Origin: a virus
IMG/VR virus record: IMGVR_UViG_3300043411_001314
Coordinates: 53,503 to 117,502 of that record
DNA length: 64,000 nucleotides
Reading direction: 5' to 3' (one strand)
Part shown: positions 19,797-64,000 of the stretch, one piece after another
Layout of the letters: each line of letters begins with the position of its first letter
Numbering within the stretch: position 1 is the stretch's first letter
The notes under the pieces: generated by a model
Database searches by the model: none
What the model was told of the DNA's origin: nothing
The model's input: only the letters and a program-made list of their open reading frames with translations
Translations under genes and position numbers: made by a program

Positions 19797-20336
19797 TCAT
19801 GGGTCTACCTGTCCGGTGTTGGCCACGAGGTCTTCGAGGCTGGGGTGGTGGGAGTACCAGTCGTCGGGTGAGTCCTCGCGGGCGTTGAGGCGGATCTCCA
19901 TCCACCCGAAGGCGAGGTGGAGGATGTCGGTCTCATCGGTCGGGTCGAGGGTGATCTCGGACTCGATCTGAAGCTCCTCGGCTAGCTCGGCCAGCCAGGC
20001 TGCCTCCCGGGAGTCCGGACATTCCGGGTCAGGGGCCCAGGCCCGGAGTGTCACTCTGACACGGTGGCGGTGGGCGGCCAGCACGAGGCGGGTCAGGTTC
20101 GCCGAGTCGTAGGTGCTCAGCTCGGAGCGGCACAAGAAGGCGAGCCCGGTCGGGGTGACCCATGGACGGGTGCCGGCATCGTGCAGGTTGTAGATCCGTG
20201 TCATGTCCCACATCGCCTGGGCGCAGCGCTGCTGGGGCTCGGAGAGCTCGAGGTTCAGCCGGCGGGCGAGCCAGTCGGCCCCGGGGTAGGTCGTGGTCGC
20301 GGTCATGGGGAACCATGCATCCTCAGGGGTGGCCAT
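19797..20336 (-). CDS. hypothetical protein
   Basis: TGATG coupling (MATPEDAW...); ELSTYDSANLTRLV...HRHRVRV. Confidence 0.7.
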   Translation of the reverse strand: MATPEDAWFPMTATTTYPGADWLARRLNLELSEPQQRCAQAMWDMTRIYNLHDAGTRPWVTPTGLAFLCRSELSTYDSANLTRLVLAAHRHRVRVTLRAWAPDPECPDSREAAWLAELAEELQIESEITLDPTDETDILHLAFGWMEIRLNAREDSPDDWYSHHPSLEDLVANTGQVDP

Positions 20337-21328
20337 CAGAAGTCCCCTTCCGCTACCTGCCAGCAGGGCAGGCCGAGTAGGCGCCACATGCGCACCACGC
20401 TGTTGCGGTCGTCGAACACGGCGGTCACGTGGAAGTGCGGCCGGATCCGCTCGGTGTAGATCTCGAGTTTGACCACCGAGTCCGGGCGCTGGTCGTCGCC
20501 GGCCCGCATCATCAGCTTGGCCCCCAGGAGCCGCTCCTCCTGGTCCCGGGTGAGGAGGCCGTCTTCCCGGGCCTTGGTCGTGGACTTCACGAACCAGTCG
20601 ACCGTCTGGCTCTCGTGCTTGTCGCTCCGACCGGAGCAGAGGATGACGTGCGGCTGGCCGGCCGCGGCTCGGGCCACCTGGACGTTGAACTTGTCCGTGT
20701 GGCAGTTGGCGGCGTCGTAGGGGTTGCGGCCCTGGTGGATGGCCAGGGTGCCGTCGAGGTCGACCAGGCAGGTCTCGGGGAGGGTCTCGTCCTGCCACAC
20801 CTGCAGCTTGGGCTTCGCCGGAGCGTCGGAGAGCAGGAGCTCGCAGGCTTCACGGGGGCTCAGCGTCTGCCAGCGGCGGAATCTCCCCCGGTTCTCAGCG
20901 GCCTCCTGGTAGATACGCCCGACGACATCGGGCCCGACGCTCTTGGGCCGGACCTTGTCTCGGTACAGGCAGTCCTGTAGGGGTACGTCGGTGAAGTCCA
21001 CGATGGCCACGTCCGCTTCGACGGCGATCATCCGTGAGATCCTCGCCGGCGTGGAGGGGTTGGCGTGCGTGTTGTGCACGATGACGTCACGGCCACGCGC
21101 CACGGCCTCGTACACGACCTGGTCGTGGACGCGCTTCACCAGCGTCTCGTCGATCTTGCCCATGCCGTCGACGAACGCCCTGCCGCGGTCGACCATCGAG
21201 CGGAGGTCGTCGAGCGACACCAGCTTCACCCGGCCGGCCGGCAGACCATCAGCGACTCCCTTGGCCCACGTCGACTTCCCGGACCCCGGCGCACCGCGGG
21301 TGAACAACACCACTGGGCGCCGACTCAT
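20336..21328 (-). CDS. pseT: polynucleotide 5'-kinase/3'-phosphatase (T4 PseT-like)
   Basis: P-loop GAPGSGKST, SLDDLR; HAD motifs DLDGT, SGR, FDDR; QVAEGDF end. Confidence 0.92.
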   Translation of the reverse strand: MSRRPVVLFTRGAPGSGKSTWAKGVADGLPAGRVKLVSLDDLRSMVDRGRAFVDGMGKIDETLVKRVHDQVVYEAVARGRDVIVHNTHANPSTPARISRMIAVEADVAIVDFTDVPLQDCLYRDKVRPKSVGPDVVGRIYQEAAENRGRFRRWQTLSPREACELLLSDAPAKPKLQVWQDETLPETCLVDLDGTLAIHQGRNPYDAANCHTDKFNVQVARAAAGQPHVILCSGRSDKHESQTVDWFVKSTTKAREDGLLTRDQEERLLGAKLMMRAGDDQRPDSVVKLEIYTERIRPHFHVTAVFDDRNSVVRMWRLLGLPCWQVAEGDF

Positions 21329-21792
21329 GACATCCCCATGTGCCGCGCCTGGAGGCTGCCAGAGTAGGCGGACCGATAGAGGGAGGCCAGGAACATCAGC
21401 ATGTCCCCGAAGGCCATGCCCTCCTCGACCGCCTCGTCGACGATGTCTAGGGCGGCGTCGATGTTGCCACCGGACAGCAACGTCAGGAGTCGGAGAACCC
21501 GCGCTTCGGCTGCCCGGGTGTGGTCGTCGAGCTCGATGATCTGCCCAGTGGTGGGGTGCTGGACCATCATGCCCTCCACCTCGATGGCTCCCCCTTCCGG
21601 GGAGCCGAGGGCGATCCGGATGTGGGGGAGGAGCAGCCGGGCCAGGGTGTCGATGGCGGCGATGCCGGTGATCACGTTCCCCAGGTTGGAGGCGGCTGCC
21701 ACGACTTCGTGCTCGTGGGGGCTGTCCTTGATGGTGGTGACGAGGGTGTGGACGGCCTTCATGTCCGGTTCGGGTTGGTCAGGGGGCATCAT
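21325..21792 (-). CDS. hypothetical protein
   Basis: Coupled at both ends (MMPPDQ...). Confidence 0.7.
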   Translation of the reverse strand: MMPPDQPEPDMKAVHTLVTTIKDSPHEHEVVAAASNLGNVITGIAAIDTLARLLLPHIRIALGSPEGGAIEVEGMMVQHPTTGQIIELDDHTRAAEARVLRLLTLLSGGNIDAALDIVDEAVEEGMAFGDMLMFLASLYRSAYSGSLQARHMGMS

Positions 21793-22925
21793 CAGGATCT
21801 CCAGTGAAAGGAAAGCTCGAGCTCGGGCCGGGCGGCTGCCCAGCATGCGGCTTTGAACTTGGTGGTGTTGCCGTCGAGCAACATGAACAGGAACGGTCGG
21901 TGCGGGCTGGCGGTTGCCAGCATGGCGAACTGCTTGCGCATGGCGCTGTCGTCTCGGATCTCGGGCGCTGGGGCGCCCATCTCCTGGAGGATGGCCCGGT
22001 ACGCCTTGAAGGCGCCACGCATCACCTCCCACTTCTTGTTGCGGATGGAACGGATCTGGTCGTTCAGCCAGCGCCGGAACTCGTCGGGGACCGTGTCGTA
22101 GAGCCGGTCCATGCCGGTGTCGGTCCGCAGGTAGTCCCAGACGGTCCGACTGGTGCAGCCGGTGAGGAGGGCGTAGAGGCGGACGTACTCGGCTTCCTTG
22201 GCTTTGGCCCGGGTCACGCCGTCGGCGGACACCAGCACGTACCCCTCGCTGTTCGGCCGTGACGGCAGGGACGGAAGGTCATGCGGTCCACCGAGGATGC
22301 CGAGCACCTCGACGCGGGCCCACGGCCACCAGTCGAACACCGGGTCGTGAGGGGAGGTGAAGTTCCCGGTGGCGATCTCGATCGCACCGAGCAGCCGGAG
22401 CTCGGCCAGCCGGCCGTAGTCCACCACGATCCGGTTCTCCGGGTAGATGATCTCGGCCAGGATGGTGTGCTCGGCCGGGTCGAGGTCGAACGGGAGCTGG
22501 TCACACAGTGGAACCCGCTCACTGAAGAGGTCGTTGGCGAACGCAGCCTGCTTGCCGGCGAAGGATCCCTTCGTGGCCCACCGGAAGCTCCCCTCAGCGT
22601 CGAGGTGGCCGACCCCAAGCGTTCCATCGGCTTTGTCGTAGGCGGTGACAGGTGGGGCCAGGTCGATCGGCCCGGCCGGCCCGTCGTCACCGTGCTCGCC
22701 CAGGTTGAAGAACTTGGGGAAGGGGCGAGCCACCACGGTCCCGTCGTCGGCCAGGATCAGCCCGCGACAGGTCCGCGTCACGTCGTCCCAGGCCCGGGTG
22801 AACTGGACCCGCTGGGTGTAGCAGTAGATGCTGAGCGGCTGCGTCGGGTGACGTTGGGCCCGGACCAGGCCCTGTTCGATGTGGCGCTCCAGCAGCTTGG
22901 GGTTGAAGAGCTCGTCGACCTTCAC
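21792..22925 (-). CDS. RNA ligase (T4 Rnl1 family)
   Basis: CRGLI...ARPFPKFFN, motif I KADG, EIIYPENRIVVDY, EGYV, KAK..EY. Confidence 0.92.
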   Translation of the reverse strand: MKVDELFNPKLLERHIEQGLVRAQRHPTQPLSIYCYTQRVQFTRAWDDVTRTCRGLILADDGTVVARPFPKFFNLGEHGDDGPAGPIDLAPPVTAYDKADGTLGVGHLDAEGSFRWATKGSFAGKQAAFANDLFSERVPLCDQLPFDLDPAEHTILAEIIYPENRIVVDYGRLAELRLLGAIEIATGNFTSPHDPVFDWWPWARVEVLGILGGPHDLPSLPSRPNSEGYVLVSADGVTRAKAKEAEYVRLYALLTGCTSRTVWDYLRTDTGMDRLYDTVPDEFRRWLNDQIRSIRNKKWEVMRGAFKAYRAILQEMGAPAPEIRDDSAMRKQFAMLATASPHRPFLFMLLDGNTTKFKAACWAAARPELELSFHWRS

Positions 22926-22947
22926 ACTTCCACCATCTTCGCTTCGG

Positions 22948-23085
22948 TCACTTCTTCGCCTTGCCCTTCTTCTTGGGCTCGACGGCCCGTGGGTGTGCTT
23001 TGTGGAACTCGTCGGCCAGCGTCACGAGATGATCGGCCATCGGTAGGTCGCACCCGGCTTGCGGGCACTTCCACTCCTCCTTCAT
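22948..23085 (-). CDS. small hypothetical protein
   Basis: ATGA coupling; 45 aa, C-x4-C...H-x3-H, Lys-rich tail. Confidence 0.55.
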   Translation of the reverse strand: MKEEWKCPQAGCDLPMADHLVTLADEFHKAHPRAVEPKKKGKAKK

Positions 23086-23339
23086 GCGGTCCTCGCGAAC
23101 GGTGGCGGCCGGCGCCGGCGTGGTGGCTCGGCCAGGTTCTCCACGACGGCTGTTCTGGTGGCCGGGGTGAAGGTCCGCTGCTCGAGGTACTCCTTGATCC
23201 CGTCCTCGGGGATGAGGATCCTGGTGGACACTCGGTGGGCTTGGAGCTCGCCGGTGCGGATCAGCTTGTCGATCGTCCTGATGTGGACGTTCAGCAGGGA
23301 AGCGGCCTCACGTCGGCTCAGCATGGGGCTGATGGTCAT
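23082..23339 (-). CDS. excisionase-like HTH DNA-binding protein
   Basis: MLSRREAASLLNVHIRTIDKLIRTGEL (HTH_17-like). Confidence 0.85.
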   Translation of the reverse strand: MTISPMLSRREAASLLNVHIRTIDKLIRTGELQAHRVSTRILIPEDGIKEYLEQRTFTPATRTAVVENLAEPPRRRRPPPFARTA

Positions 23340-23345
23340 CCTGCA

Positions 23346-23375
23346 ACCATACCGATCGCATATCAGCGGAGTCAA
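23346..23375 (-). promoter_or_regulatory. SigA-type promoter, leaderless start
   Basis: TTGACT-N18-TATGGT, ATG 7 nt downstream. Confidence 0.65.
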
Positions 23376-24592
23376 TACCCTGAGCGTCGCCTGCCTAGGC
23401 GGTGATCGACCAAGATCTGGTGAATGAGGTCGATGTTGGGCGTCGCCGGCAGCACCGACTCGACGGCGTTGAAGCGAGCAAAGGCGTCCTCGGCCTCCGT
23501 CACCATGGCCTCCAGCGGGAGCTCCCCGAACTCGAACAGTTCCTCACGGTTCGGGACCATCACTCGCAGCTCGCCCGTCTCCAGGAGGTGGGCTCCCTGC
23601 TGCAGTAGCCGGAGCATGTGGCGGGCGTGCTTGGCCGTCCGCTTCCTGGTGTCGGCGCTGAAGGATCCGTCACCGCGGTTCTTCAGCCGATTGAACTGCG
23701 CCATGGCGTAGCCGCCGAAGGTCGCTCGGCATCGGTCCGAGAGGAAGGCGTCGAGGTTCGCTCGCAGGTCGTCGGCCAGGGGAGATGAGACCTCCGGGTC
23801 GATGGCCAGCACCTCGAGAACCGTCGGGTTGGCGGCAAGCGCCAGGCTCACGAACTTGCCCACCTCGTGCAAGGTGATGTCTGGGTCGGTGCGCGTCCAG
23901 GAGTCCTTCGGGCGCTTGTCGTTCACGCCGACCAAGAGGTGCGCCGGCGCCTCGAAGAACCCTCGGTAGTCGGTGTCGCTGTCCGGCGTGTCGAGCCCGT
24001 AAGCCTTCGAGCCGGCCACCACGACGAGCCCGACATCCATGCCCTCAGGCGGCGACCAGGGGAGGGGCCATGTCCGCACCGTCCGCACCCGTGGTCGCCC
24101 AGGCCGCCCCCCGAGGCCAGCGGCGAATGCCTCCCCGCACTCGCGGTAGTACTGCTCGATGTCGGTGGGTCGATAGCGCCGTCGGATGGCAGCGAGCGGT
24201 AGGGGCGGCGGGAAGCATGGCCTGAGCGCGTGCTGTCGGACCCGCTCTCTGGTGATGCCGAGGACCTTGGAGATCTGCCGAAGAGTCACCCCGGGGAGCG
24301 GCGGCGGGGGAGGCTGGCGCCTACTCGGCTGGGGCTGATGCCACCGCCAGGTCTTCTGTGCCTTCACCTCACCAGGTTTCAACCAGTACCGCCCGCGGTA
24401 CCCGTCCGCTTGGGCATCTTGGGTGACGTTGATGTTGCCGCCACGTGCTCGGTTCCACGAATCCTGCAGCTCCCTCTGGTCGAACATCGCCGACTCGATC
24501 AGGAACCGCATTGTCCGCTGCCTCTGTTGCGTCGCGGCCCGTTGCTCCGGGGACCACCGCGAGATGCGCTCGGGTACTCCGACCTGACTCAA
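23372..24592 (-). CDS. Pol-beta nucleotidyltransferase (YcgL/RlaP-like) with N-terminal HTH extension
   Basis: GSKAYGLDTPDSDTDYRG, NPTVLE, KHARHMLRLL; TLRQISKVLGITRERVRQ HTH. Confidence 0.85.
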   Translation of the reverse strand: MSQVGVPERISRWSPEQRAATQQRQRTMRFLIESAMFDQRELQDSWNRARGGNINVTQDAQADGYRGRYWLKPGEVKAQKTWRWHQPQPSRRQPPPPPLPGVTLRQISKVLGITRERVRQHALRPCFPPPLPLAAIRRRYRPTDIEQYYRECGEAFAAGLGGRPGRPRVRTVRTWPLPWSPPEGMDVGLVVVAGSKAYGLDTPDSDTDYRGFFEAPAHLLVGVNDKRPKDSWTRTDPDITLHEVGKFVSLALAANPTVLEVLAIDPEVSSPLADDLRANLDAFLSDRCRATFGGYAMAQFNRLKNRGDGSFSADTRKRTAKHARHMLRLLQQGAHLLETGELRVMVPNREELFEFGELPLEAMVTEAEDAFARFNAVESVLPATPNIDLIHQILVDHRLGRRRSGY

Positions 24593-24611
24593 GACGTGAC
24601 CTCCTGCGGGC

Positions 24612-25025
24612 TCACTTCTTCTTCGCCTTGCCCTTCTTGGTCGCCTTGCGCCGGGCCCGGTCCTTGGCCTTGCGGGCCGCGGCCGGCGTCTTGGTGGCCC
24701 CGGGTGGATGCTTCTCCCACCGGCCGGCCGGGGGAGCCCAGGTGGGGGTGAGTATCTCCAGGAAGAAGAACAACGAGTCGCCGAGCCCGTCGAGTCCGTC
24801 GAGTCCGTCGAGCTCGTCGAACACGTCGTGCATGGCGTCGTTGCCGAACTCGTCCTCGAGCGCTTCGCACGCCGCGTCGTACTCGAACTCAGACAGGTGT
24901 TCCAGGGCGGCGGTGACCGCCCCGCACAGGTCGGTCCGGTGGGCGAACTCGACGATCCGCCTCCCGATGACCTCCCGGCAGGTGTCGTCGTCGAGGTCGT
25001 CCAGGCCGTCCCGCAGGGCGATCAT
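24612..25025 (-). CDS. hypothetical protein
   Basis: ATGA coupling; acidic core, Lys-rich tail. Confidence 0.7.
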   Translation of the reverse strand: MIALRDGLDDLDDDTCREVIGRRIVEFAHRTDLCGAVTAALEHLSEFEYDAACEALEDEFGNDAMHDVFDELDGLDGLDGLGDSLFFFLEILTPTWAPPAGRWEKHPPGATKTPAAARKAKDRARRKATKKGKAKKK

Positions 25026-25462
25026 TCGGTCACCGCTCGGCCGGCCTCGAGGATCGGCAGCCCAGCCTCGGTCGGCACGTAGATGATCTGGCCGTTGCCG
25101 CCGGCGAGGGCGTCGATGTAGAGGTACCGCAGGTACTCCTCGGTGAGCGTCGAAGCGATGATGTCCTGCGACTCAGCCAGGCCCCGGGCCCGGATCACCT
25201 CGGCGTCGGCCTTGGCCTGGGCCTGGGTGACCTGGGAGCGGGCCGCGTACTCGGCGGCCTCGGACTTGGCCTTCTGCTCGGCGATGACCGCCTGCTTCTC
25301 CGTGTTCGCCCGGTAGAGGTTCAGTCGTGGGCTGATGATGCCCCATGCCGCGCTGATCAGGAAGATGCCGACGACGAACCCGCCGGTCACCTTGCAGCCG
25401 AACACCACCCACTGCCGGGCCTCGGCGTTCTGCGCGGCCTTCTGCTCTTCGTAGCTTGCCAT
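25022..25462 (-). CDS. membrane-anchored SPFH/band-7-like protein
   Basis: TM helix, coiled coil, EEYLRYLYI...IIYVPTEAGLPILEAGR. Confidence 0.75.
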   Translation of the reverse strand: MASYEEQKAAQNAEARQWVVFGCKVTGGFVVGIFLISAAWGIISPRLNLYRANTEKQAVIAEQKAKSEAAEYAARSQVTQAQAKADAEVIRARGLAESQDIIASTLTEEYLRYLYIDALAGGNGQIIYVPTEAGLPILEAGRAVTE

Positions 25463-25502
25463 GACTTGCTCCTTCTTGTTGTTGTCCGCGCTGGTGCGCG
25501 AG

Positions 25503-25575
25503 CGCCTTGGGCTGGGTTCGAACCAGCGACCGACCGTTTAGAAGACGGGTGCTCTATCCACTGAGCTACCAAGGC
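25503..25575 (-). tRNA. tRNA-Arg(UCU)
   Basis: GCCTTGG/CCAAGGC acceptor, loop CTTCTAA, T-loop TTCGAAC; CCA not encoded. Confidence 0.92.
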
Positions 25576-25580
25576 TGAGG

Positions 25581-25653
25581 ATCCCGGGGACCGGATCGAA
25601 CGGTCAACCGCTGCATCCAAAGTGCAGTGTTCTGCCAGTTGAACTACCCGGGA
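25581..25653 (-). tRNA. tRNA-Gln(UUG)
   Basis: TCCCGGG/CCCGGGA acceptor, CTGCA-CTTTGGA-TGCAG; U73. Confidence 0.9.
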
Positions 25654-41443: not shown

Positions 41444-41452
41444 GTGTTCCTC

Positions 41453-41941
41453 CTAGATGTCCCCGCCCATTTGGGCGTAGTGCTCGGTTGCTTCGTTGAT
41501 GTTCATCAGTCGGGCGAAGCCCGGGTTCCTCAACCGCCGGCCGTCGAAGAAGTCCCAGTGGGCTACCTCGTAGAACGGCGGCTCGTCCATCAGCCGCATG
41601 ATGAGGTACTCGTCGCGGGCAGTGTCGTCGCAGTACACGCAGGAGGCGATGACGATGCCATCGTCCAGCGTCGCCCCCGGCCGGGTGAGCCTGCGGACCT
41701 CAGCCCACTCCTGTCGGTCAGCCAGGGCGGTCAGGCGCCCACTCTCGTAGGCGAAGCTGCGAGCTTGGGCCCGGAGCAGCTCCTTGGGCGCGGGCCCACT
41801 GCTGAGGCTGTCAGCGATCACTCGAGCGTTGTCGATGCAGTCCGTCAGCTCCTGATCGAAGTTGGACTGGTCTGCGTTGCAGGCGGCGTGTACGTCCTTG
41901 ATCGCCTTGGCCATCACGTCGGCGGGTGTGCTGTATCCCAT
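41453..41941 (-). CDS. hypothetical protein
   Basis: GAAAGGAA RBS before MGYST. Confidence 0.65.
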   Translation of the reverse strand: MGYSTPADVMAKAIKDVHAACNADQSNFDQELTDCIDNARVIADSLSSGPAPKELLRAQARSFAYESGRLTALADRQEWAEVRRLTRPGATLDDGIVIASCVYCDDTARDEYLIMRLMDEPPFYEVAHWDFFDGRRLRNPGFARLMNINEATEHYAQMGGDI

Positions 41942-59491: not shown

Positions 59492-59728
59492 CTAGAGCCG
59501 AAGCTCCTCCTCCTCGATCTCTCCGATGAGCTCACTAACGATGGCGGTGAGCAGCCCTCCAGGTCTGGCCGCGAGGCTGCTCACCTTGGCGAGGTGAGCA
59601 GCACCGCAGGATCCCCTGGTGCACTCGATCATCACCTTCCCGAACTCAGCTTCCTCGATGGTCAGCAGTACCCCGAAGGCTGTTGCCTCCGCACGGGCCT
59701 GCTCGATCTGTACCTGGGGCACGAACAT
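59492..59728 (-). CDS. hypothetical protein
   Basis: AAAGGAGG RBS (MFVPQV...). Confidence 0.65.
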   Translation of the reverse strand: MFVPQVQIEQARAEATAFGVLLTIEEAEFGKVMIECTRGSCGAAHLAKVSSLAARPGGLLTAIVSELIGEIEEEELRL

Positions 59729-59751
59729 GGCCCCTCCTTTCGATGTGATAG

Positions 59752-59822
59752 TGGTCCTGGAGAGAATCGAACTCCCACTGAGCGGTTGCCCGCTCGCCCC
59801 CACCGACTGGGGATTCAGGACC
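59752..59822 (-). ncRNA. tRNA-like RNA lacking an anticodon loop
   Basis: GGUCCUG/CAGGACC acceptor, D arm, GAGCGG-GCAA-CCGCUC, GGGAG-UUCGAUU-CUCUC T arm. Confidence 0.75.
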
Positions 59823-59831
59823 CAGTTCCCA

Positions 59832-60116
59832 TTAGGCGACGACTGCCGCCGATGGGAAGGCTTGTAGGACGAGGGCGATGATCTCCGCCACATCCTCGTC
59901 CGTCGCGTCGTCGTAGGTGGTGACGCTCGTGATGCCGTTGCAGCACGAGTAGTACCACTCGATGCGGTGGACGAGGACGTCGATGCGGTACGCACCGTTG
60001 CAGACCTCGCACGGGCAGGGCAACGATTCGAGGGCGGCGTCGAAGGCGTCGTCCTCCCAGTCGATGCCGGTGAACTTGACCTCTCGGGTCGGTTCGTCGT
60101 CGTCGATGTCTGTCAT
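59832..60116 (-). CDS. hypothetical protein
   Basis: CxCxxC...CC, 94 aa. Confidence 0.6.
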   Translation of the reverse strand: MTDIDDDEPTREVKFTGIDWEDDAFDAALESLPCPCEVCNGAYRIDVLVHRIEWYYSCCNGITSVTTYDDATDEDVAEIIALVLQAFPSAAVVA

Positions 60117-60120
60117 GGGC

Positions 60121-60495
60121 TTACCTGTCTTTCTTCATGGTGCCGATGAGCCAGCACCGGAACCGTTCGGCACGCTTCCGGTCAGGGTCGAGATCCTGGG
60201 CTGCGGTCATCAGAACGATGGCCTGCTCACGGAGATCCTCCGCCAGTGAACGATCTCGCTGGCGCTTGGTGCCCCAGTACTCCTTGGTGATGGTGACGTC
60301 GAAGGTGGCGACGCTCCGGGGATAGGTGAACCCGAAGGCGTCCTCGTCCTCCCACTCCTGCCTCACTTGCCCCACCCCGACTCCACTCGCCGGGTCTGGT
60401 TCATCCGGTCCCGGTAGTTCCAGTCGATGGCGATGCCGTGGATCGGCATGGCCGCCGTCCGGGGATGCTTGGGCTTCATCTGCTCTCGCAGCCAT
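60121..60495 (-). CDS. hypothetical protein (start uncertain)
   Basis: C-terminal half protein-like. Confidence 0.45.
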   Translation of the reverse strand: MAARADEAQASPDGGHADPRHRHRLELPGPDEPDPASGVGVGQVRQEWEDEDAFGFTYPRSVATFDVTITKEYWGTKRQRDRSLAEDLREQAIVLMTAAQDLDPDRKRAERFRCWLIGTMKKDR

Positions 60496-60515
60496 TCATA
60501 CATGGCGATGCCTCC

Positions 60516-60782
60516 TCAGGCGATGTTGCGGATGGTGAGACCGTTCGGCCGGCTCATGGCGGCCTTCGCCCGGTGCCGCGCCTTGTAGGGCTGCGATGCC
60601 ACGAACGATGCGATGCCGGCCAGCCAGCCCAGCTCGGGCGGTGTCACCGGATCGCGGTAGACGATGGGGAGGCTGTAGACGTCAGCCTCCCAGTCCAGGT
60701 AGTCAAGCTCGCTGTCCTCCAGCGATACGCCGATGGTGTCGGCGATGCTCACAGCACGCCGCAGTTCCTCGATGGTGTCCAT
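60516..60782 (-). CDS. hypothetical protein
   Basis: AAAGGAGG RBS. Confidence 0.7.
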   Translation of the reverse strand: MDTIEELRRAVSIADTIGVSLEDSELDYLDWEADVYSLPIVYRDPVTPPELGWLAGIASFVASQPYKARHRAKAAMSRPNGLTIRNIA

Positions 60783-60843
60783 CGTGGCCTCCTTTGGGTG
60801 ATGGGATCATTCCCCGGCCGGAGCCGGAGAAAGGTCACATCCG

Positions 60844-61116
60844 CCAAACGATACGAGCCTTCACCAAACGATATGAGCCGACACGTTCGGCGGTCCGCCC
60901 TGCTGACCAGGTGAACGGGGTGCGATGGGTCACCTTGCGCCACCTGAAGTGGCATGAACGATACGAGCCACGGTCACTCCGCACCCGGCCATCCCGGATA
61001 TGAGGGGATGGGCGTGATGCCTGTTGTGGTAACCGTGTTGGCCCGCTCGAAAGCTAGGGGTGATACCGCAAGAACCGAGTCCGGCCAAACGATAGGACGG
61101 ACCGCCAAACGATATG
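60844..61116. repeat. five direct CCAAACGATA(YGAGCC)-type boxes
   Basis: Copies at 60844, 60864, ~60954 (degenerate), 61085, 61105. Confidence 0.8.
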
Positions 61117-61123
61117 TCGTTGT

Positions 61124-61666
61124 GGTCCCAACCGCCCTGGGGCACCCCCAACCTTACGGATGGGGATAACCCGACGAGCTACTACAGGTCGTTCTTGCTG
61201 AGGATGCGGGGGCCGGAGGACGACGCACCACGGATGCAGCCGTCGATGTTGTACGTCGACGGCCCCATCTCGGTGAACCGCACCTGCAGGACCTTCTCGC
61301 CGTAGCCGTCGATGGTGACCTTGCCGGAGCCGCGGACTCGCCGCTGCCCCTTCTCCGTCACGTCCAGCTTCAGCGGGATGGTGACCCCACCGACCGAGAC
61401 GGCCTTCGGGAGCTCCGAGATGACCTCGGAGCTCACGTTCACGCCGTACTTGTTGTAGTACCGCGTGCCGTCGGCCTTCCGGTTGGTGATGCCCCAGTAG
61501 GTGTTGCCGTTGCGAGCCGTCAGCTGACGGAGCGGAAGGACGTCACCCGTGTTGGTCGTCACCTCGATGACCTCGGTGTTGTTGCTCATTGGACTGCTCC
61601 TTTTGGCACCTCCAGGGGCCCTGTATTGGGCCTGGTGGCTGGTGATGCCCCAGAGCGGTCGGGACC
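61124..61666 (-). repeat. 30-bp imperfect inverted repeat enclosing ORF 61182-61589
   Basis: 61124-61153 vs 61637-61666, 25/30 identical; 4 of 5 differences are G-U pairs on the minus-strand RNA. Confidence 0.85.
61182..61589 (-). CDS. hypothetical beta-rich basic protein
   Basis: AAAAGGAG RBS, strongly biased codons, 135 aa. Confidence 0.85.
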   Translation of the reverse strand: MSNNTEVIEVTTNTGDVLPLRQLTARNGNTYWGITNRKADGTRYYNKYGVNVSSEVISELPKAVSVGGVTIPLKLDVTEKGQRRVRGSGKVTIDGYGEKVLQVRFTEMGPSTYNIDGCIRGASSSGPRILSKNDL

Positions 61667-61670
61667 GTTC

Positions 61671-62240
61671 GTGAAGTCCGGGTGGCTTGCCATCTGACCG
61701 ACTCCGCCCCTTCCAAGCCCGGGTAGGTTCTCTTCCCTAAGCGAGGGGGTGCGTGAGCCAAGGGGTCGGCAAGCGGCCCTTTCTCCACTCCTGGTACTTC
61801 ACACTTCCCGTCTCCTCCCGATGTCTCCAAGGTTTCCCGATGCCAGGGGTGGCAGCTGAAGGTAAGGACCCTTCGTCAACTTGCCCCGTAGGGCGCGTAA
61901 ACACACTGCCCCTGACGCCTCGACCCATTCCGAGCCGGGTTGGTAGGTAGTTTCGTACCAGGTCGATTGCTCGGCCCCAGGTAGCTTCCGGGTTAGCTCT
62001 CAAGCAATCTTTCGGATCGGCGTAGTGTCCTCGCCGTCCTCAAACCCTGCGATGATCGAGACCTCAGGTATGGCACACCTGTTCTCCTCGAGGTGCCCGG
62101 TGTCCGTTGCCGGAGATGGGTTGACCTCAAAGCGGGTGGATCTCGCTTCGCACGACCGGGCTTGTCTCTGCCTCGGTGTAAAGGGGATTCGCCCTTGCCT
62201 GGCACGGACCCAGGTTTAGGGCTAGCTGGTCTCTTGCTAC
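61671..62240 (-). ncRNA. candidate large structured non-coding RNA (~570 nt)
   Basis: No credible ORF; more than 15 nested helices with G-U pairs, GNRA and UACG tetraloops and A-rich linkers on the minus strand. Confidence 0.65.
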
Positions 62241-62408
62241 CGCTCGACGTCGAGCGTCGAACGGACCAGCACGGCACCGGCACCACTCGACGTCGAGCGT
62301 CGAGCGGCTGGCACCGGCACCGGAGCCGCCGGAGCGGCACCGGCACCAGCACCAGCCAGCAACCACACAATCCGGCAAGCGAGCGACCGGCTCGACCGTG
62401 CCGTAACA

Positions 62409-62500
62409 ATCGGGACCCGATCCACCATGAAACACCATGAAAGTTTGTGAGTTTCGTAATGGTTTCGTAACGTAAACGTGAGGTTTCGTCACAGTTCGCG
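62409..62500. promoter_or_regulatory. AT-rich divergence point with short phased repeats
   Basis: CACCATGAAA x2; GTTTCGT at 62451, 62462, 62483; strand switch. Confidence 0.5.
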
Positions 62501-62549
62501 GACTAGAGTGGCGCTTGCAAGTCACCCACCAGCCAGGAAGGCACCAGCC

Positions 62550-63932
62550 ATGACAACCACCAGCACCAGGACCACCAGCAAGCGAGGCTCCGGCAAGGCT
62601 CGACCGGAGCGGCTCCGGCTCGACGTCGAGCCGGTGCCGGAGCACTGGCCAGCCGCCAGCAAGTCGAGCACCCTCGGGGAGCACGTCGCTTGGGTGCCGA
62701 GCACTGGCCAGCGCTGGCACGGCACCGACTCGACGACCCCGGACGGCGCGGCCATCGTCGGGTGTCACTTGCCGTGGCCACTGGACATGACGGGGAGCAA
62801 GCGAGTCTCGACGGCACTGGCTCGGAAGTTCGTCGGTGTCCTCTCGACGGACGTCCGACCGGAGCGACTGGAACAACTCGGCACACTGGCTCAATGGCAG
62901 CTTGCCGGAATCGGTGCCGTCACCGTGATCCGAGCACGTCGAGCCGGAGCGAGCGACCAGGACATCGCGCTTGCCGTGGCGAAGGCATGGCCAGAGGTGG
63001 CGCGAGCGCTCACCACGGCGCGCCAGCGCTCGGATGCTCGGAAGAACACAACGGCACGCGGCGAGCGCGGTCGAGCGGCTCGCGCCGTCGTGACGGCGAC
63101 CGCTTGCCGGTGCCGTCCCGACTCGGACGGCACCGTCCGGCGGCACCGTTGCATCCTGGCCATGCTCCGGCGCCCACTGGCCAGCACGTCGACCGCTCGA
63201 CGCTCGACCGCTCCGGTCGCCATCGTGCCGGTCGAGCACCGGAGCCAGTGGCAAGCGCTCCGGCTCGACGTCGAGCGGCTCCGGCTCGACGTCGAGTCGG
63301 CACGGTCGAGCGTCGAGCGCTGGCACGGTCGAGCCGGAGCGGCTCGCTCGCTGCTGGTCGACGTCGAGCACCAGGACTCGACCGCTCCGGCTGGCACGGT
63401 CGAGCACGTCGAGCGGCTCCGGCTCGACGTCGAGCGGCTCCGGCTCGACGTGCTCGCGACGGACCAGGACGTCGAGCGGCTCCGGCAAGCGGTCGAGTCG
63501 AGCGAGCCGGTCGAGCGCTCGACGTCGACGCTCCGGCTCGACTCGCTCGACTCGCTCGACTCGCTCGACGTCGAGCGTCGAGCGGTCGACGTCGAGCGGC
63601 TCCGGCTCGACGGCATCCGGCTCCGCTACCGGAGCAAGCGGCTCGGCAAGCTTGCCGACTCGCTCGACGTCGAGCGGCTCCGGCTCGCTGGCACGGTCGA
63701 GCCGGAGCGGCTGGCTCCGGTCGACGTCGAGCACCAGGACGTCGAGCGGCTCCGGCTCGACGTGCTGGCCAGTGAGCGAGCCGAGCGGCTGGCTCGGCTC
63801 CGGCTCGGCTCGCTGGCCGGTCGCTCCGGTGCTCGACGTCGAGCGCTCGACGCTCGACGTCGAGCGCTCCGGCTCGACGTGCTGGCCAGCGGCTCCGGCA
63901 CCGGCTCGACCGTGCTCGACTCGCTCGACTGA
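62550..63932 (+). CDS. hypothetical protein with VERLRLD repeats
   Basis: AGGAAGG RBS, ATG, terminator after stop; N-terminal half protein-like. Confidence 0.55.
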   Translation: MTTTSTRTTSKRGSGKARPERLRLDVEPVPEHWPAASKSSTLGEHVAWVPSTGQRWHGTDSTTPDGAAIVGCHLPWPLDMTGSKRVSTALARKFVGVLSTDVRPERLEQLGTLAQWQLAGIGAVTVIRARRAGASDQDIALAVAKAWPEVARALTTARQRSDARKNTTARGERGRAARAVVTATACRCRPDSDGTVRRHRCILAMLRRPLASTSTARRSTAPVAIVPVEHRSQWQALRLDVERLRLDVESARSSVERWHGRAGAARSLLVDVEHQDSTAPAGTVEHVERLRLDVERLRLDVLATDQDVERLRQAVESSEPVERSTSTLRLDSLDSLDSLDVERRAVDVERLRLDGIRLRYRSKRLGKLADSLDVERLRLAGTVEPERLAPVDVEHQDVERLRLDVLASERAERLARLRLGSLAGRSGARRRALDARRRALRLDVLASGSGTGSTVLDSLD

Positions 63933-63956
63933 CTCGACTCGACGTCGAGCCGGAGC

Positions 63957-63987
63957 GGCCCCCGGGGGTTTCCCCCGGGGGCCTTTT
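63957..63987 (+). terminator. intrinsic terminator
   Basis: GGCCCCCGGGGG-TTT-CCCCCGGGGGCC-TTTT. Confidence 0.8.
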
Positions 63988-64000
63988 CCGGTCTAGTTTG

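What the first reader, a model, noticed from the sequence alone, without database searches (positions are those of the whole stretch)
61124..61666. 30-bp long-range helix closes both ends of one mRNA, with an RNA-level G-U signature
Seen: the 5' flank GGUCCCGACCGCUCUGGGGCAUCACCAGCC pairs with the 3' flank GGUUGGGGGUGCCCCAGGGCGGUUGGGACC, giving 25 Watson-Crick pairs, 4 G-U pairs and 1 mismatch. On the plus strand the four would be A-C mismatches, so selection appears to act on the minus-strand RNA rather than on a DNA inverted repeat. Known analogues are RNase III stems flanking rRNA, 5'-3' pairing in type I toxin mRNAs and intron domain IV stems. Inference: the ORF is looped out for excision, stabilisation or circularisation (the phage encodes Rnl1 and Pnk).
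Basis: partly seen in the sequence, partly recalled or inferred. Interest (0 to 1): 0.75.

Follow-up and report, generated by a model that had tools for sequence, protein, structure and literature searches.

The report
Paired-end phage mRNA beside second stalk
Two 30-base stretches just outside a small phage gene can pair in its messenger RNA and close the whole gene into a loop, and a second such stem sits right next to it, so this phage's first transcript probably matures somewhat as ribosomal RNA does.

Summary
On the minus strand, 61666-61637 pairs with 61153-61124 (25 Watson-Crick, 4 G-U, 1 A.G). The arms lie in the untranslated flanks of a real, conserved 135-aa gene (61589-61182).

The helix is the best gene-flank helix in the 117.5-kb contig: 25.5 against a maximum of 15.0 for 152 other candidate genes. 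No relative's DNA could be fetched, so evidence from relatives is thin. One ~97% strain (run X2) has two changes in the arms, and both turn G-U into Watson-Crick pairs.

New: 4 nt downstream lies a second long-range helix, H2 (61119-61075 with 60918-60879; 35 pairs, 5 G-U). It closes a ~155-nt ORF-less rod. Folding z is -6.3 on the minus strand and -2.7 on the plus strand. All 5 natural substitutions inside it hit unpaired bases.

Together the helices hold 9 G-U and no A.C on the minus strand, which favours RNA over a DNA repeat. The best reading is a pair of tandem double-stranded RNA stalks in a leftward transcript that process or stabilise it, probably through host RNase III. Circularisation, inversion and a mobile element have little support. 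I rate it a new variant of a known kind, of moderate interest.

The parts
61637..61666 (-). H1 5' arm, in the 5' UTR. It ends 47 nt upstream of the start codon.
61124..61153 (-). H1 3' arm, in the 3' UTR. It starts 28 nt after the stop codon. Strain X2 differs at 61130 and 61136, and both changes turn G-U into Watson-Crick pairs.
61182..61589 (-). ORF135, a 135-aa all-beta protein of an unnamed family. GC3 is 0.94. An AAGGAG ribosome-binding site lies at 61602-61597. The stop is a tandem TAG TAG.
61612..61635 (-). Local hairpin in the 5' UTR, directly inside the 5' arm. It appears in both the MFE and the centroid fold.
61075..61119 (-). H2 5' strand. It begins 4 nt after the H1 3' arm and carries two TATCGTTTGG copies.
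60879..60918 (-). H2 3' strand. H2 has 35 pairs in total: 30 WC and 5 G-U.
60919..61074 (-). ORF-less, rod-like structured interior closed by H2. All 5 natural substitution sites inside the element fall on unpaired bases.
60844..60873 (-). Second pair of TATCGTTTGG direct repeats, 20 nt apart, just after H2. Strain X2 carries one extra 14-nt unit here.

Best explanation
The two 30-nt arms are the two strands of an RNA helix (H1) in a leftward, minus-strand transcript. That transcript starts near the right end of the phage genome and opens a block of leftward genes running from 61589 down to about 44346. H1 closes the complete ORF135 cistron into a 483-nt loop, with its hairpin, ribosome-binding site and coding region inside.

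Four nucleotides further on, a second stem (H2, 35 pairs) closes a ~155-nt ORF-less rod. A near-perfect double-stranded RNA of 30-35 bp is a standard substrate for bacterial RNase III. The most likely mechanism is therefore that the host enzyme cuts both stalks. This would do three things:
- release ORF135 mRNA with its 5' and 3' ends still paired in a residual stem, and so shielded from exonucleases;
- detach the rod RNA;
- give the downstream polycistronic RNA a new 5' end.

That is a pre-rRNA-like or T7-early-like maturation scheme applied to a protein-coding gene.

Shown: the helices, their uniqueness in this genome, their strand asymmetry, and the way natural variants spare the pairing.

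Inferred: co-transcription of both arms, cleavage by RNase III, and the effect on stability.
For: - H1 geometry and statistics come (25.5 against a maximum of 15.0 for 152 other genes).
- H1 is predicted robustly, with mean pair probability 0.83-0.84 in six contexts.
- The arms lie in non-coding flanks and leave the ribosome-binding site free.
- Strand asymmetry of H1: -61.8 against -45.5 kcal/mol.
- H2: 35 pairs with mean pair probability 0.94. Folding z is -6.33 on the minus strand and -2.67 on the plus strand for the same 341 nt.
- H1 and H2 together hold 9 G-U pairs and no 1x1 A.C mismatch on the minus strand. By my own inference, (1/2)^9 = 0.002 if the strand were irrelevant.
- Natural variants. 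In the ~97% strain of run X2, the only 2 listed differences in the 60 arm positions are 61130 A>G and 61136 C>T. On the RNA these read G-U to G-C and U-G to U-A.
- In the 341-nt intergenic stretch, 6 of 7 substitution sites are unpaired in the MFE fold and the seventh is A-U to G-U. P = 0.004; inside H2 it is 5 of 5, P = 0.0017.
- Two variant contigs lose near-identity at 61119 (X15) and 61116 (X11), in or next to the 4-nt spacer between H1 and H2. The X15 variant still carries a recognisably homologous 3' arm (16 of the 23 visible positions identical, by my alignment of the loose end). Arm and gene therefore travel together.
- ORF135 is a real gene: 3 close homologues and 92 cluster representatives at E <= 1e-3.
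Against: - No homologous locus could be fetched, so there is no double-sided compensatory change and no test of whether the 92 family representatives also carry paired flanks.
- Both X2 changes make the repeat more perfect. That is also what gene conversion between DNA repeats would give.
- says one further difference is not shown, and X2 record 12 has 4 other letters of which 3 are listed. A hidden change in the 5' arm is not strictly excluded.
- Four G-U on the sense strand has a chance probability of 1/16. Excess C-to-T change on the coding strand would raise that.
- No promoter or terminator consensus was found in 59500-62500, so the transcript ends are unknown.
- RNA-library contigs of X15 cover only 61213-61560 and do not span the arms. 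DNA in that library cannot be excluded.
- The contig encodes no RNase III and the host is unknown.
- X2 has a 1-nt insertion after 60901, inside the H2 3' strand and opposite an existing 3-nt bulge.
- On genome-wide scoring alone H1 exceeds chance only moderately.
Confidence: 0.5

Rival explanations
1. The same RNA helix forms, but it works without cleavage. It would be a 5'/3'-UTR lock, like hbs of B. subtilis, that hides the transcript ends or nearby nuclease sites and tunes the half-life or translation of ORF135 mRNA.
For: All the structural evidence for H1 applies equally. A 14-bp 5'/3'-UTR interaction that modulates RNase Y cleavage is documented for hbs (PMC5737220, abstract read).
Against: A 30-bp stem with a single mismatch is much longer than protection needs, and it is long enough to be cut by RNase III (established knowledge of the enzyme's roughly two-turn substrate). 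The ribosome-binding site is not part of the helix, so there is no icaR-type control of translation.
Confidence: 0.2
2. The arms are DNA-level terminal inverted repeats of a small mobile or recombining gene cassette, an MPME- or MITE-like element of 543 bp carrying one ORF.
For: The repeat is 25/30 identical with sharp ends and brackets one small ORF of unknown function. Mycobacteriophage MPME1 is a 439-bp element with inverted repeats (PMC3029335, passages read). Variant contigs change from near-identity to divergence within 5-8 bp of the outer end of the 3' arm.
Against: - There is one copy only in the contig, and no other arm copy within 8 mismatches.
- There is no target duplication beyond 2 bp.
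- The ORF has no match in 50,697 phage records that include MPME-bearing phages. It has no Pfam or PHROG family and an all-beta model.
- No empty site was seen in 4 runs. The variants carry a diverged cassette instead.
- This reading does not explain the G-U bias (9:0) or the adjacent ORF-less H2 with its strand-specific folding signal.
Confidence: 0.12
3. Chance similarity, or a relic of a past duplication-inversion, with no present function.
For: The genome-wide excess over simulations is moderate: 25.5 against 22.5, and a coding-region pair on the plus strand reaches 23.5. My binomial expectation is 0.01-0.07.
Against: - It is an outlier of more than 9 sd among gene flanks.
- Both arms sit exactly in the UTRs.
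- 2 of 2 arm substitutions in X2 fall on G-U pairs and restore Watson-Crick pairing. I estimate the chance of that at roughly 0.002-0.008.
- A homologous arm is retained in a diverged variant.
- A second stalk lies next door.
Confidence: 0.07
4. An invertible DNA switch: site-specific recombination between the arms flips the gene relative to an outside promoter.
For: Inverted repeats of 26-34 bp flank invertible segments in phages Mu and P1 (recalled, not from a call). The size range fits.
Against: - The contig holds no serine or tyrosine recombinase (0 matches), though it is only about 80% complete.
- Contigs of run X2 cross each arm in the window's orientation, and no strand-changing joint was listed in 4 runs. 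Contigs drop rare forms, so this is weak evidence.
- Five mismatches in the repeats are unfavourable for crossover sites.
- This reading does not explain H2 or the G-U bias.
Confidence: 0.03
5. After excision at H1, the phage Pnkp and Rnl1 join the ends to make a circular ORF135 RNA.
For: Pnkp and an Rnl1-type ligase are encoded at 20336-21328 and 21792-22925. H1 would bring the two ends together.
Against: - RNase III leaves 5'-phosphate and 3'-OH ends on opposite strands of a helix end. It leaves no gap or loop of the kind that Rnl1 seals in tRNA (established enzymology).
- The ligase and kinase genes sit with RlaP beside tRNA genes, which is the tRNA-repair context.
- No back-splice joint was listed, though contigs cannot show one reliably.
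Confidence: 0.03

Closest known systems
rRNA operon processing stalks: leader-trailer helices around 16S and 23S rRNA, cut by RNase III
   Same: Sequences on the two sides of a long RNA pair into a helix of more than 20 bp that loops out the whole product. Two such stalks follow each other on one transcript, as H1 and H2 do here. The B. subtilis 16S and 23S stalks are described in PMC4838370 (passages read).
   Different: The looped-out cargo of H1 is a translated protein-coding cistron, not a structural RNA. Cleavage is not shown. No rRNA-type antitermination signal was tested.
RNase III processing of phage early polycistronic mRNAs (T7 is recalled; SP82 is cited in PMC4838370 as references 19 and 20, passage seen)
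   Same: Early genes near one genome end, with double-stranded RNA signals between cistrons. After cutting, stems remain at the mRNA ends.
   Different: The known sites are local hairpins between genes. Here the stem is formed by sequences 483 nt apart and encloses the gene.
hbs mRNA 5'/3'-UTR interaction, B. subtilis (PMC5737220, abstract read)
   Same: [quoted passage not shown]
   Different: The hbs interaction is 14 bp against 30 bp here. It overlaps an RNase Y site. It is cellular, not phage. It has no neighbouring second stalk.
icaR mRNA 5'/3'-UTR pairing, S. aureus (PMC3868564, abstract read)
   Same: The 3' UTR pairs with the 5' UTR and creates an RNase III substrate.
   Different: The icaR pairing covers the Shine-Dalgarno sequence and blocks translation. 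Here the AAGGAG site at 61602-61597 lies 34 nt outside the helix.
MPME1/2 ultra-small mobile elements of mycobacteriophages (PMC3029335, passages read)
   Same: About 0.4-0.5 kb, with inverted repeats at the ends and one small ORF of unknown function, in an actinophage-like genome.
   Different: There is no ORF similarity, a single copy, no insertion footprint, a G-U bias on the sense strand, and an adjacent ORF-less stalk.

Membership tests
RNase III processing stalk (rRNA-type leader-trailer helix) | Helix formed by sequences flanking the released RNA | tested here: met
   The arms bracket the whole cistron and are kept in the MFE and centroid folds. Pair probability is 0.84.
RNase III processing stalk (rRNA-type leader-trailer helix) | Double-stranded RNA of about two helical turns or more | tested here: met
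   30 positions and 29 pairs; duplex -61.8 kcal/mol.
RNase III processing stalk (rRNA-type leader-trailer helix) | Both strands lie on one transcript | not testable with these tools
   Only contigs were available, and the RNA-library contigs cover 61213-61560 only. No promoter or terminator consensus was found.
RNase III processing stalk (rRNA-type leader-trailer helix) | Staggered RNase III cuts in both strands | not testable with these tools
   This needs raw 5'/3'-end data or an in vitro assay.
RNase III processing stalk (rRNA-type leader-trailer helix) | Pairing conserved through covariation in relatives | tested here: inconclusive
   2 of 2 arm changes in X2 keep the pairing (G-U to WC), but there are no double-sided changes. 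No homologous locus could be fetched.
5'/3'-UTR interaction of the icaR type | The 3' UTR pairs with the Shine-Dalgarno region | tested here: not met
   The AAGGAG site at 61602-61597 is outside the 5' arm at 61666-61637.
MPME / MITE-like mobile element | Terminal inverted repeats | tested here: met
   25 of 30 positions are complementary as DNA.
MPME / MITE-like mobile element | Several copies, or presence/absence between close genomes | tested here: not met
   There is 1 copy in 117.5 kb. In 4 runs the variants show a diverged cassette, not an empty site.
MPME / MITE-like mobile element | Insertion footprint (target duplication or the MPME 6-bp addition) | tested here: not met
   Only the 2 bases AC are shared by the outer flanks.
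MPME / MITE-like mobile element | ORF related to MPME ORFs | tested here: not met
   tblastn of ORF135 against 50,697 phage records gave no match at E <= 0.01.
Invertible DNA segment (Gin/Hin/Cin type) | Recombinase gene in the element or genome | tested here: not met
   PF00239 and PF00589 gave 0 matches in the contig. The contig is about 80% complete.
Invertible DNA segment (Gin/Hin/Cin type) | Both orientations present in a population | tested here: inconclusive
   No strand-changing joint was listed in contigs of 4 runs, but contigs drop rare forms.
Type I toxin mRNA with 5'-3' fold-back (hok type) | Small hydrophobic toxic peptide | tested here: not met
   The product is a 135-aa protein with an all-beta model, pLDDT 77.6.
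Group I/II intron with ORF in a peripheral loop | Intron core RNA and flanking exons | tested here: not met
   No intron family matched at E <= 5-10 in 59500-64000 or 60700-61750. The flanks are non-coding.

The most novel reading that the evidence does not exclude
The phage's rightmost leftward transcript is built like a pre-rRNA. It carries consecutive long-range stalks, each closing one cargo: first a fast-evolving protein-coding mRNA, then a ~240-nt rod-shaped non-coding RNA. Host RNase III would cut these into separately stable molecules. Each stalk-plus-cargo would also be a unit of exchange between related phages, since the mosaic junctions fall in the 4-nt spacer between the stalks. 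This would be a general, portable way for phages to give single genes their own RNA fate inside an operon.
Probability: 0.3. Interest if true: 0.75.

Novelty: new variant of a known kind. Interest (0 to 1): 0.55.

Why it matters
Long-range stems that enclose whole genes are textbook for rRNA. For bacterial or phage mRNAs they are documented only a few times (icaR, hbs). My searches for phage examples returned no paper whose title or abstract start describes one (listings only).

If the two stalks are real processing signals, they show how a phage can uncouple the stability of one early gene, and of a non-coding RNA, from the rest of an operon. They would also explain why such flanks move together with the gene. 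The locus is small enough (about 0.9 kb) to test directly with RNase III and reporter constructs.

The gene itself belongs to an unnamed family with 92 cluster representatives. In the one close strain, all 5 of its differences change the protein. That would fit a host-interaction role.

Tried and rejected
Attempts to reach DNA of relatives all failed:
- Protein-seeded scans with ORF135, A1 and A3 in viral, metagenome and genome contigs found nothing.
- The neighbouring 124-aa protein found nothing.
- The repeat pattern TATCGTTTGG-N10-TATCGTTTGG gave 1 viral locus and 12 metagenome loci. None of the 13 resembled the window by blastn or tblastn. L002 and L013 were read and are unrelated.
- A degenerate arm motif gave 3 unrelated loci.
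- A 37-nt invariant stretch gave 0 hits in genome and viral contigs.
- blastn and tblastn against the phage records found nothing.
- The alignments were too diverse.

RNAduplex on 120-nt flanks was uninformative, because GC-rich flanks all give about -75 to -115 kcal/mol. I replaced it with ungapped helix scoring.

Z-scores from 12 shuffles are noisy. Window 41444-41597 scored -4.7 but only -2.3 with 200 shuffles. I therefore rely on the 100-shuffle values for H2.

The function of ORF135 remains unknown:
- No Pfam or PHROG family, for it or for 43 family members.
- Foldseek against PDB and BFVD found nothing at E <= 0.001.
- The best VIA-align Z was 6.5, within the noise range the tool states.
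- The protein atlas gave no usable hit.

Rfam has no family for H1 or H2.

RNA-library contigs of X15 cover the ORF but not the arms. I draw no conclusion from that gap.

Earlier-scan look-ups by place and by sequence returned nothing.

Full report
**Setting**

The window is the right-hand 64 kb of a 117,502-bp IMG/VR virus contig. The contig is classed as linear and about 80% complete. GC content is 63-70% and the window holds 8 tRNA genes. No record among 50,697 phage genomes resembles the region at the DNA level.

By a third-codon-position GC filter, minus-strand genes tile from 61589 down to about 44346. The gene in question is therefore the first gene of a long leftward block. To its right lie about 460 nt without a convincing ORF. 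Beyond that is a 1.8-kb array holding 11 copies of the 12-bp palindrome CTCGACGTCGAG (0.01 expected), which runs to the contig end.

**The observation**

On the minus strand they pair as 25 Watson-Crick, 4 G-U and 1 A.G. On the plus strand the four G-U positions become mismatches. The helix ends sharply on both sides.

- The helix survives in the MFE and centroid folds.
- Its mean pair probability is 0.83-0.84 in six transcript contexts from 543 to 1601 nt.
- With Watson-Crick-only scoring it is the best long-range inverted repeat of the contig outside the palindrome array.
- With G-U allowed it scores 25.5. None of 20 simulated genomes reached that (maximum 22.5), although a coding-region pair on the plus strand reaches 23.5.
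- The sharper test asks, for each of 153 candidate genes, how well its 150-nt flanks can pair. This gene scores 25.5. The other 152 have mean 10.0, sd 1.56 and maximum 15.0.

**The gene**

ORF 61589-61182 has GC3 of 0.94, an AAGGAG site 7 nt before the ATG, and a tandem TAG TAG stop. It has three homologues at 52-66% identity. A profile search found 92 cluster representatives at E <= 1e-3, nearly all 126-170 aa. They end in a Gly-rich tail with a conserved terminal Leu.

No function could be assigned:
- No member matches Pfam or PHROGs meaningfully.
- The AlphaFold model is all-beta, with pLDDT 77.6.
- It has no convincing structural neighbour.

The 5' arm ends 47 nt before the start codon and the 3' arm begins 28 nt after the stop. 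Both arms are therefore in untranslated flanks, and the ribosome-binding site is left free.

**Relatives**

No DNA of a homologous locus could be fetched by any route (see Tried and rejected). The only comparative data come from laying public-run contigs on 60400-62200.

*Run X2.* It holds a strain about 97% identical across the whole stretch. Within the 60 arm positions it shows two listed differences, 61130 A>G and 61136 C>T. On the RNA these are U>C at pair 7 (G-U becomes G-C) and G>A at pair 13 (U-G becomes U-A). The X2 duplex is slightly stronger, -64.8 against -61.8 kcal/mol. I estimate the chance that two random substitutions both do this at well under 1%. They are one-sided changes, however, and they are also what homogenisation of a DNA repeat would give.

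One caveat applies. states that one further difference is not shown, and one of the four differences in the X2 contig that covers the 5' arm is unlisted.

*Runs X15 and X11.* Two other variants stay near-identical up to 61119 (X15 record 7) and 61116 (X11 record 5), then diverge. The 30 visible letters of the X15 loose end align to the window's 3' arm at 16 of 23 positions (my alignment). The arm is therefore kept in a diverged allele, and the junction between conserved and diverged sequence lies at the outer foot of the helix.

**A second stalk**

Starting 4 nt after the 3' arm, 61119-61075 pairs with 60918-60879. There are 35 pairs (30 Watson-Crick, 5 G-U) with three small bulges or loops and no 1x1 A.C mismatch. 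This helix, H2, closes a rod-like, ORF-less interior of about 155 nt.

- The fold has z = -6.33 on the minus strand (0 of 100 shuffles as stable). The same DNA read as plus-strand RNA gives z = -2.67.
- Mean pair probability of H2 is 0.94.
- Rfam has no family for it.

Independent support comes from the natural variants. Of the 7 substitution sites in these 341 nt, 6 fall on bases unpaired in the MFE fold and the seventh changes A-U to G-U. With 31% of bases unpaired, P = 0.004. Inside H2 the count is 5 of 5, P = 0.0017.

Against this, X2 has a 1-nt insertion after 60901, within the 3' strand and opposite an existing 3-nt bulge. It also has a 14-nt extra repeat unit after 60842, outside H2.

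Four exact copies of TATCGTTTGG occur in two pairs spaced 20 nt apart: two in the 5' strand of H2 and two just after its 3' strand. Only 2 of 100 shuffles gave 4 or more copies. Their role is unexplained.

**RNA or DNA**

H1 and H2 together carry 9 G-U pairs and no A.C on the strand that carries the genes. If the strand did not matter, the probability would be about 0.002 (my inference). A coding-strand C-to-T bias would soften this but not remove it. The energy and z-score asymmetries point the same way.

DNA-level readings fare poorly:
- *Mobile element.* One copy only; no footprint beyond 2 bp; no relation to MPME ORFs (MPME features from PMC3029335); no empty site in 4 runs.
- *Invertible switch.* No serine or tyrosine recombinase in the contig, and no strand-changing joint in 4 runs. 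Contigs are weak evidence for that, however.

Neither DNA-level reading explains an adjacent ORF-less stalk with a strand-specific folding signal.

**Mechanism**

I read H1 and H2 as tandem double-stranded RNA stalks on one leftward transcript. A helix of 30-35 bp is a canonical RNase III substrate (established knowledge). The contig has no RNase III gene of its own, so the host enzyme would act.

Cutting would release ORF135 mRNA with paired ends, free the rod RNA, and reset the 5' end of the downstream operon. This follows the logic of rRNA processing stalks (PMC4838370) and of phage early-mRNA processing.

A non-cleaving 'lock' like hbs (PMC5737220) is the main rival. icaR-type translational control (PMC3868564) does not fit, because the Shine-Dalgarno site is outside the helix.

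Co-transcription, cleavage and the effect on stability are all inferred.

The Rnl1-type ligase, Pnkp and RlaP genes exist at 20336-24592. They sit beside tRNA genes, 38-41 kb away, in the usual tRNA-repair arrangement. Nothing links them to this RNA, so circularisation is kept only as a long shot.

**Context from this scan**

Earlier notes list eight other gene- or cargo-bracketing long-range stems, mostly in phages. Several are reported to show covariation, and one has a second helix next door. These are unchecked AI notes. I used them only to set expectations. They make the RNA reading less surprising, and they lower the novelty of this single case.

**Verdict**

I rate it a new variant of a known kind. 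Interest is moderate, limited by the lack of homologous loci and of transcript-end data.

Noticed in passing
window 62243-63949 (array spans about 62127-64000): There are 11 exact copies of the 12-bp palindrome CTCGACGTCGAG in a 1.8-kb ORF-poor, tandem-repeat-rich stretch that runs to the contig end (0.01 expected). Only one further copy exists in the other 115 kb. It may be a protein-binding array (origin, partition or packaging site), and it probably explains why the assembly stops here.
   Followed up: partly
window 61085-61114 and 60844-60873: There are four exact TATCGTTTGG copies in two pairs spaced 20 nt apart, plus a variant near 60965. Strain X2 has an extra 14-nt unit after 60842. 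The downstream copies could pair with the 3' strand of H2 as an alternative local hairpin. Their role is unknown: an operator, or alternative RNA pairing.
   Followed up: partly
window 61182-61589 (-), codons 92-96 and 125: In the ~97% strain of run X2, all 5 substitutions in ORF135 change the protein (T92I, D94 at two positions, Y96H, S125A) and none is synonymous. They cluster in a loop that also varies among the homologues. This hints at diversifying selection.
   Followed up: partly
window 59752-59822 (-): Rfam's tRNA model matches at 30.1 bits, just above the gathering score of 29 (E 0.0022). ARAGORN does not call it. It may be a degenerate or tRNA-like element inside the leftward block.
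   Followed up: no
window 20336-25653 (-): An RNA-repair module sits directly beside tRNA-Arg and tRNA-Gln genes. It comprises Pnkp (PF25109), an Rnl1-type RNA ligase (PF09511) and RlaP (PF10127, with a weak sigma-70 region 4 match).
   Followed up: partly
proteins P0001-P0095 (family of window 61182-61589): This is an unnamed protein family of about 130-145 aa, with 92 cluster representatives at E <= 1e-3. It is all-beta, with a Gly-rich tail and a conserved C-terminal Leu. A few long proteins (865-2286 aa) carry 4-8 repeats of the domain. It has no Pfam or PHROG family.
   Followed up: partly
window 60400-61119 versus 61120 onward, in runs X3, X11, X15: Many freshwater and wastewater runs hold about 28% of the sampled words of 60400-62200. 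Laying four of them shows the shared part is the left side (downstream genes and H2). The ORF135 cassette is replaced there by diverged alleles, a sharp mosaic boundary.
   Followed up: partly
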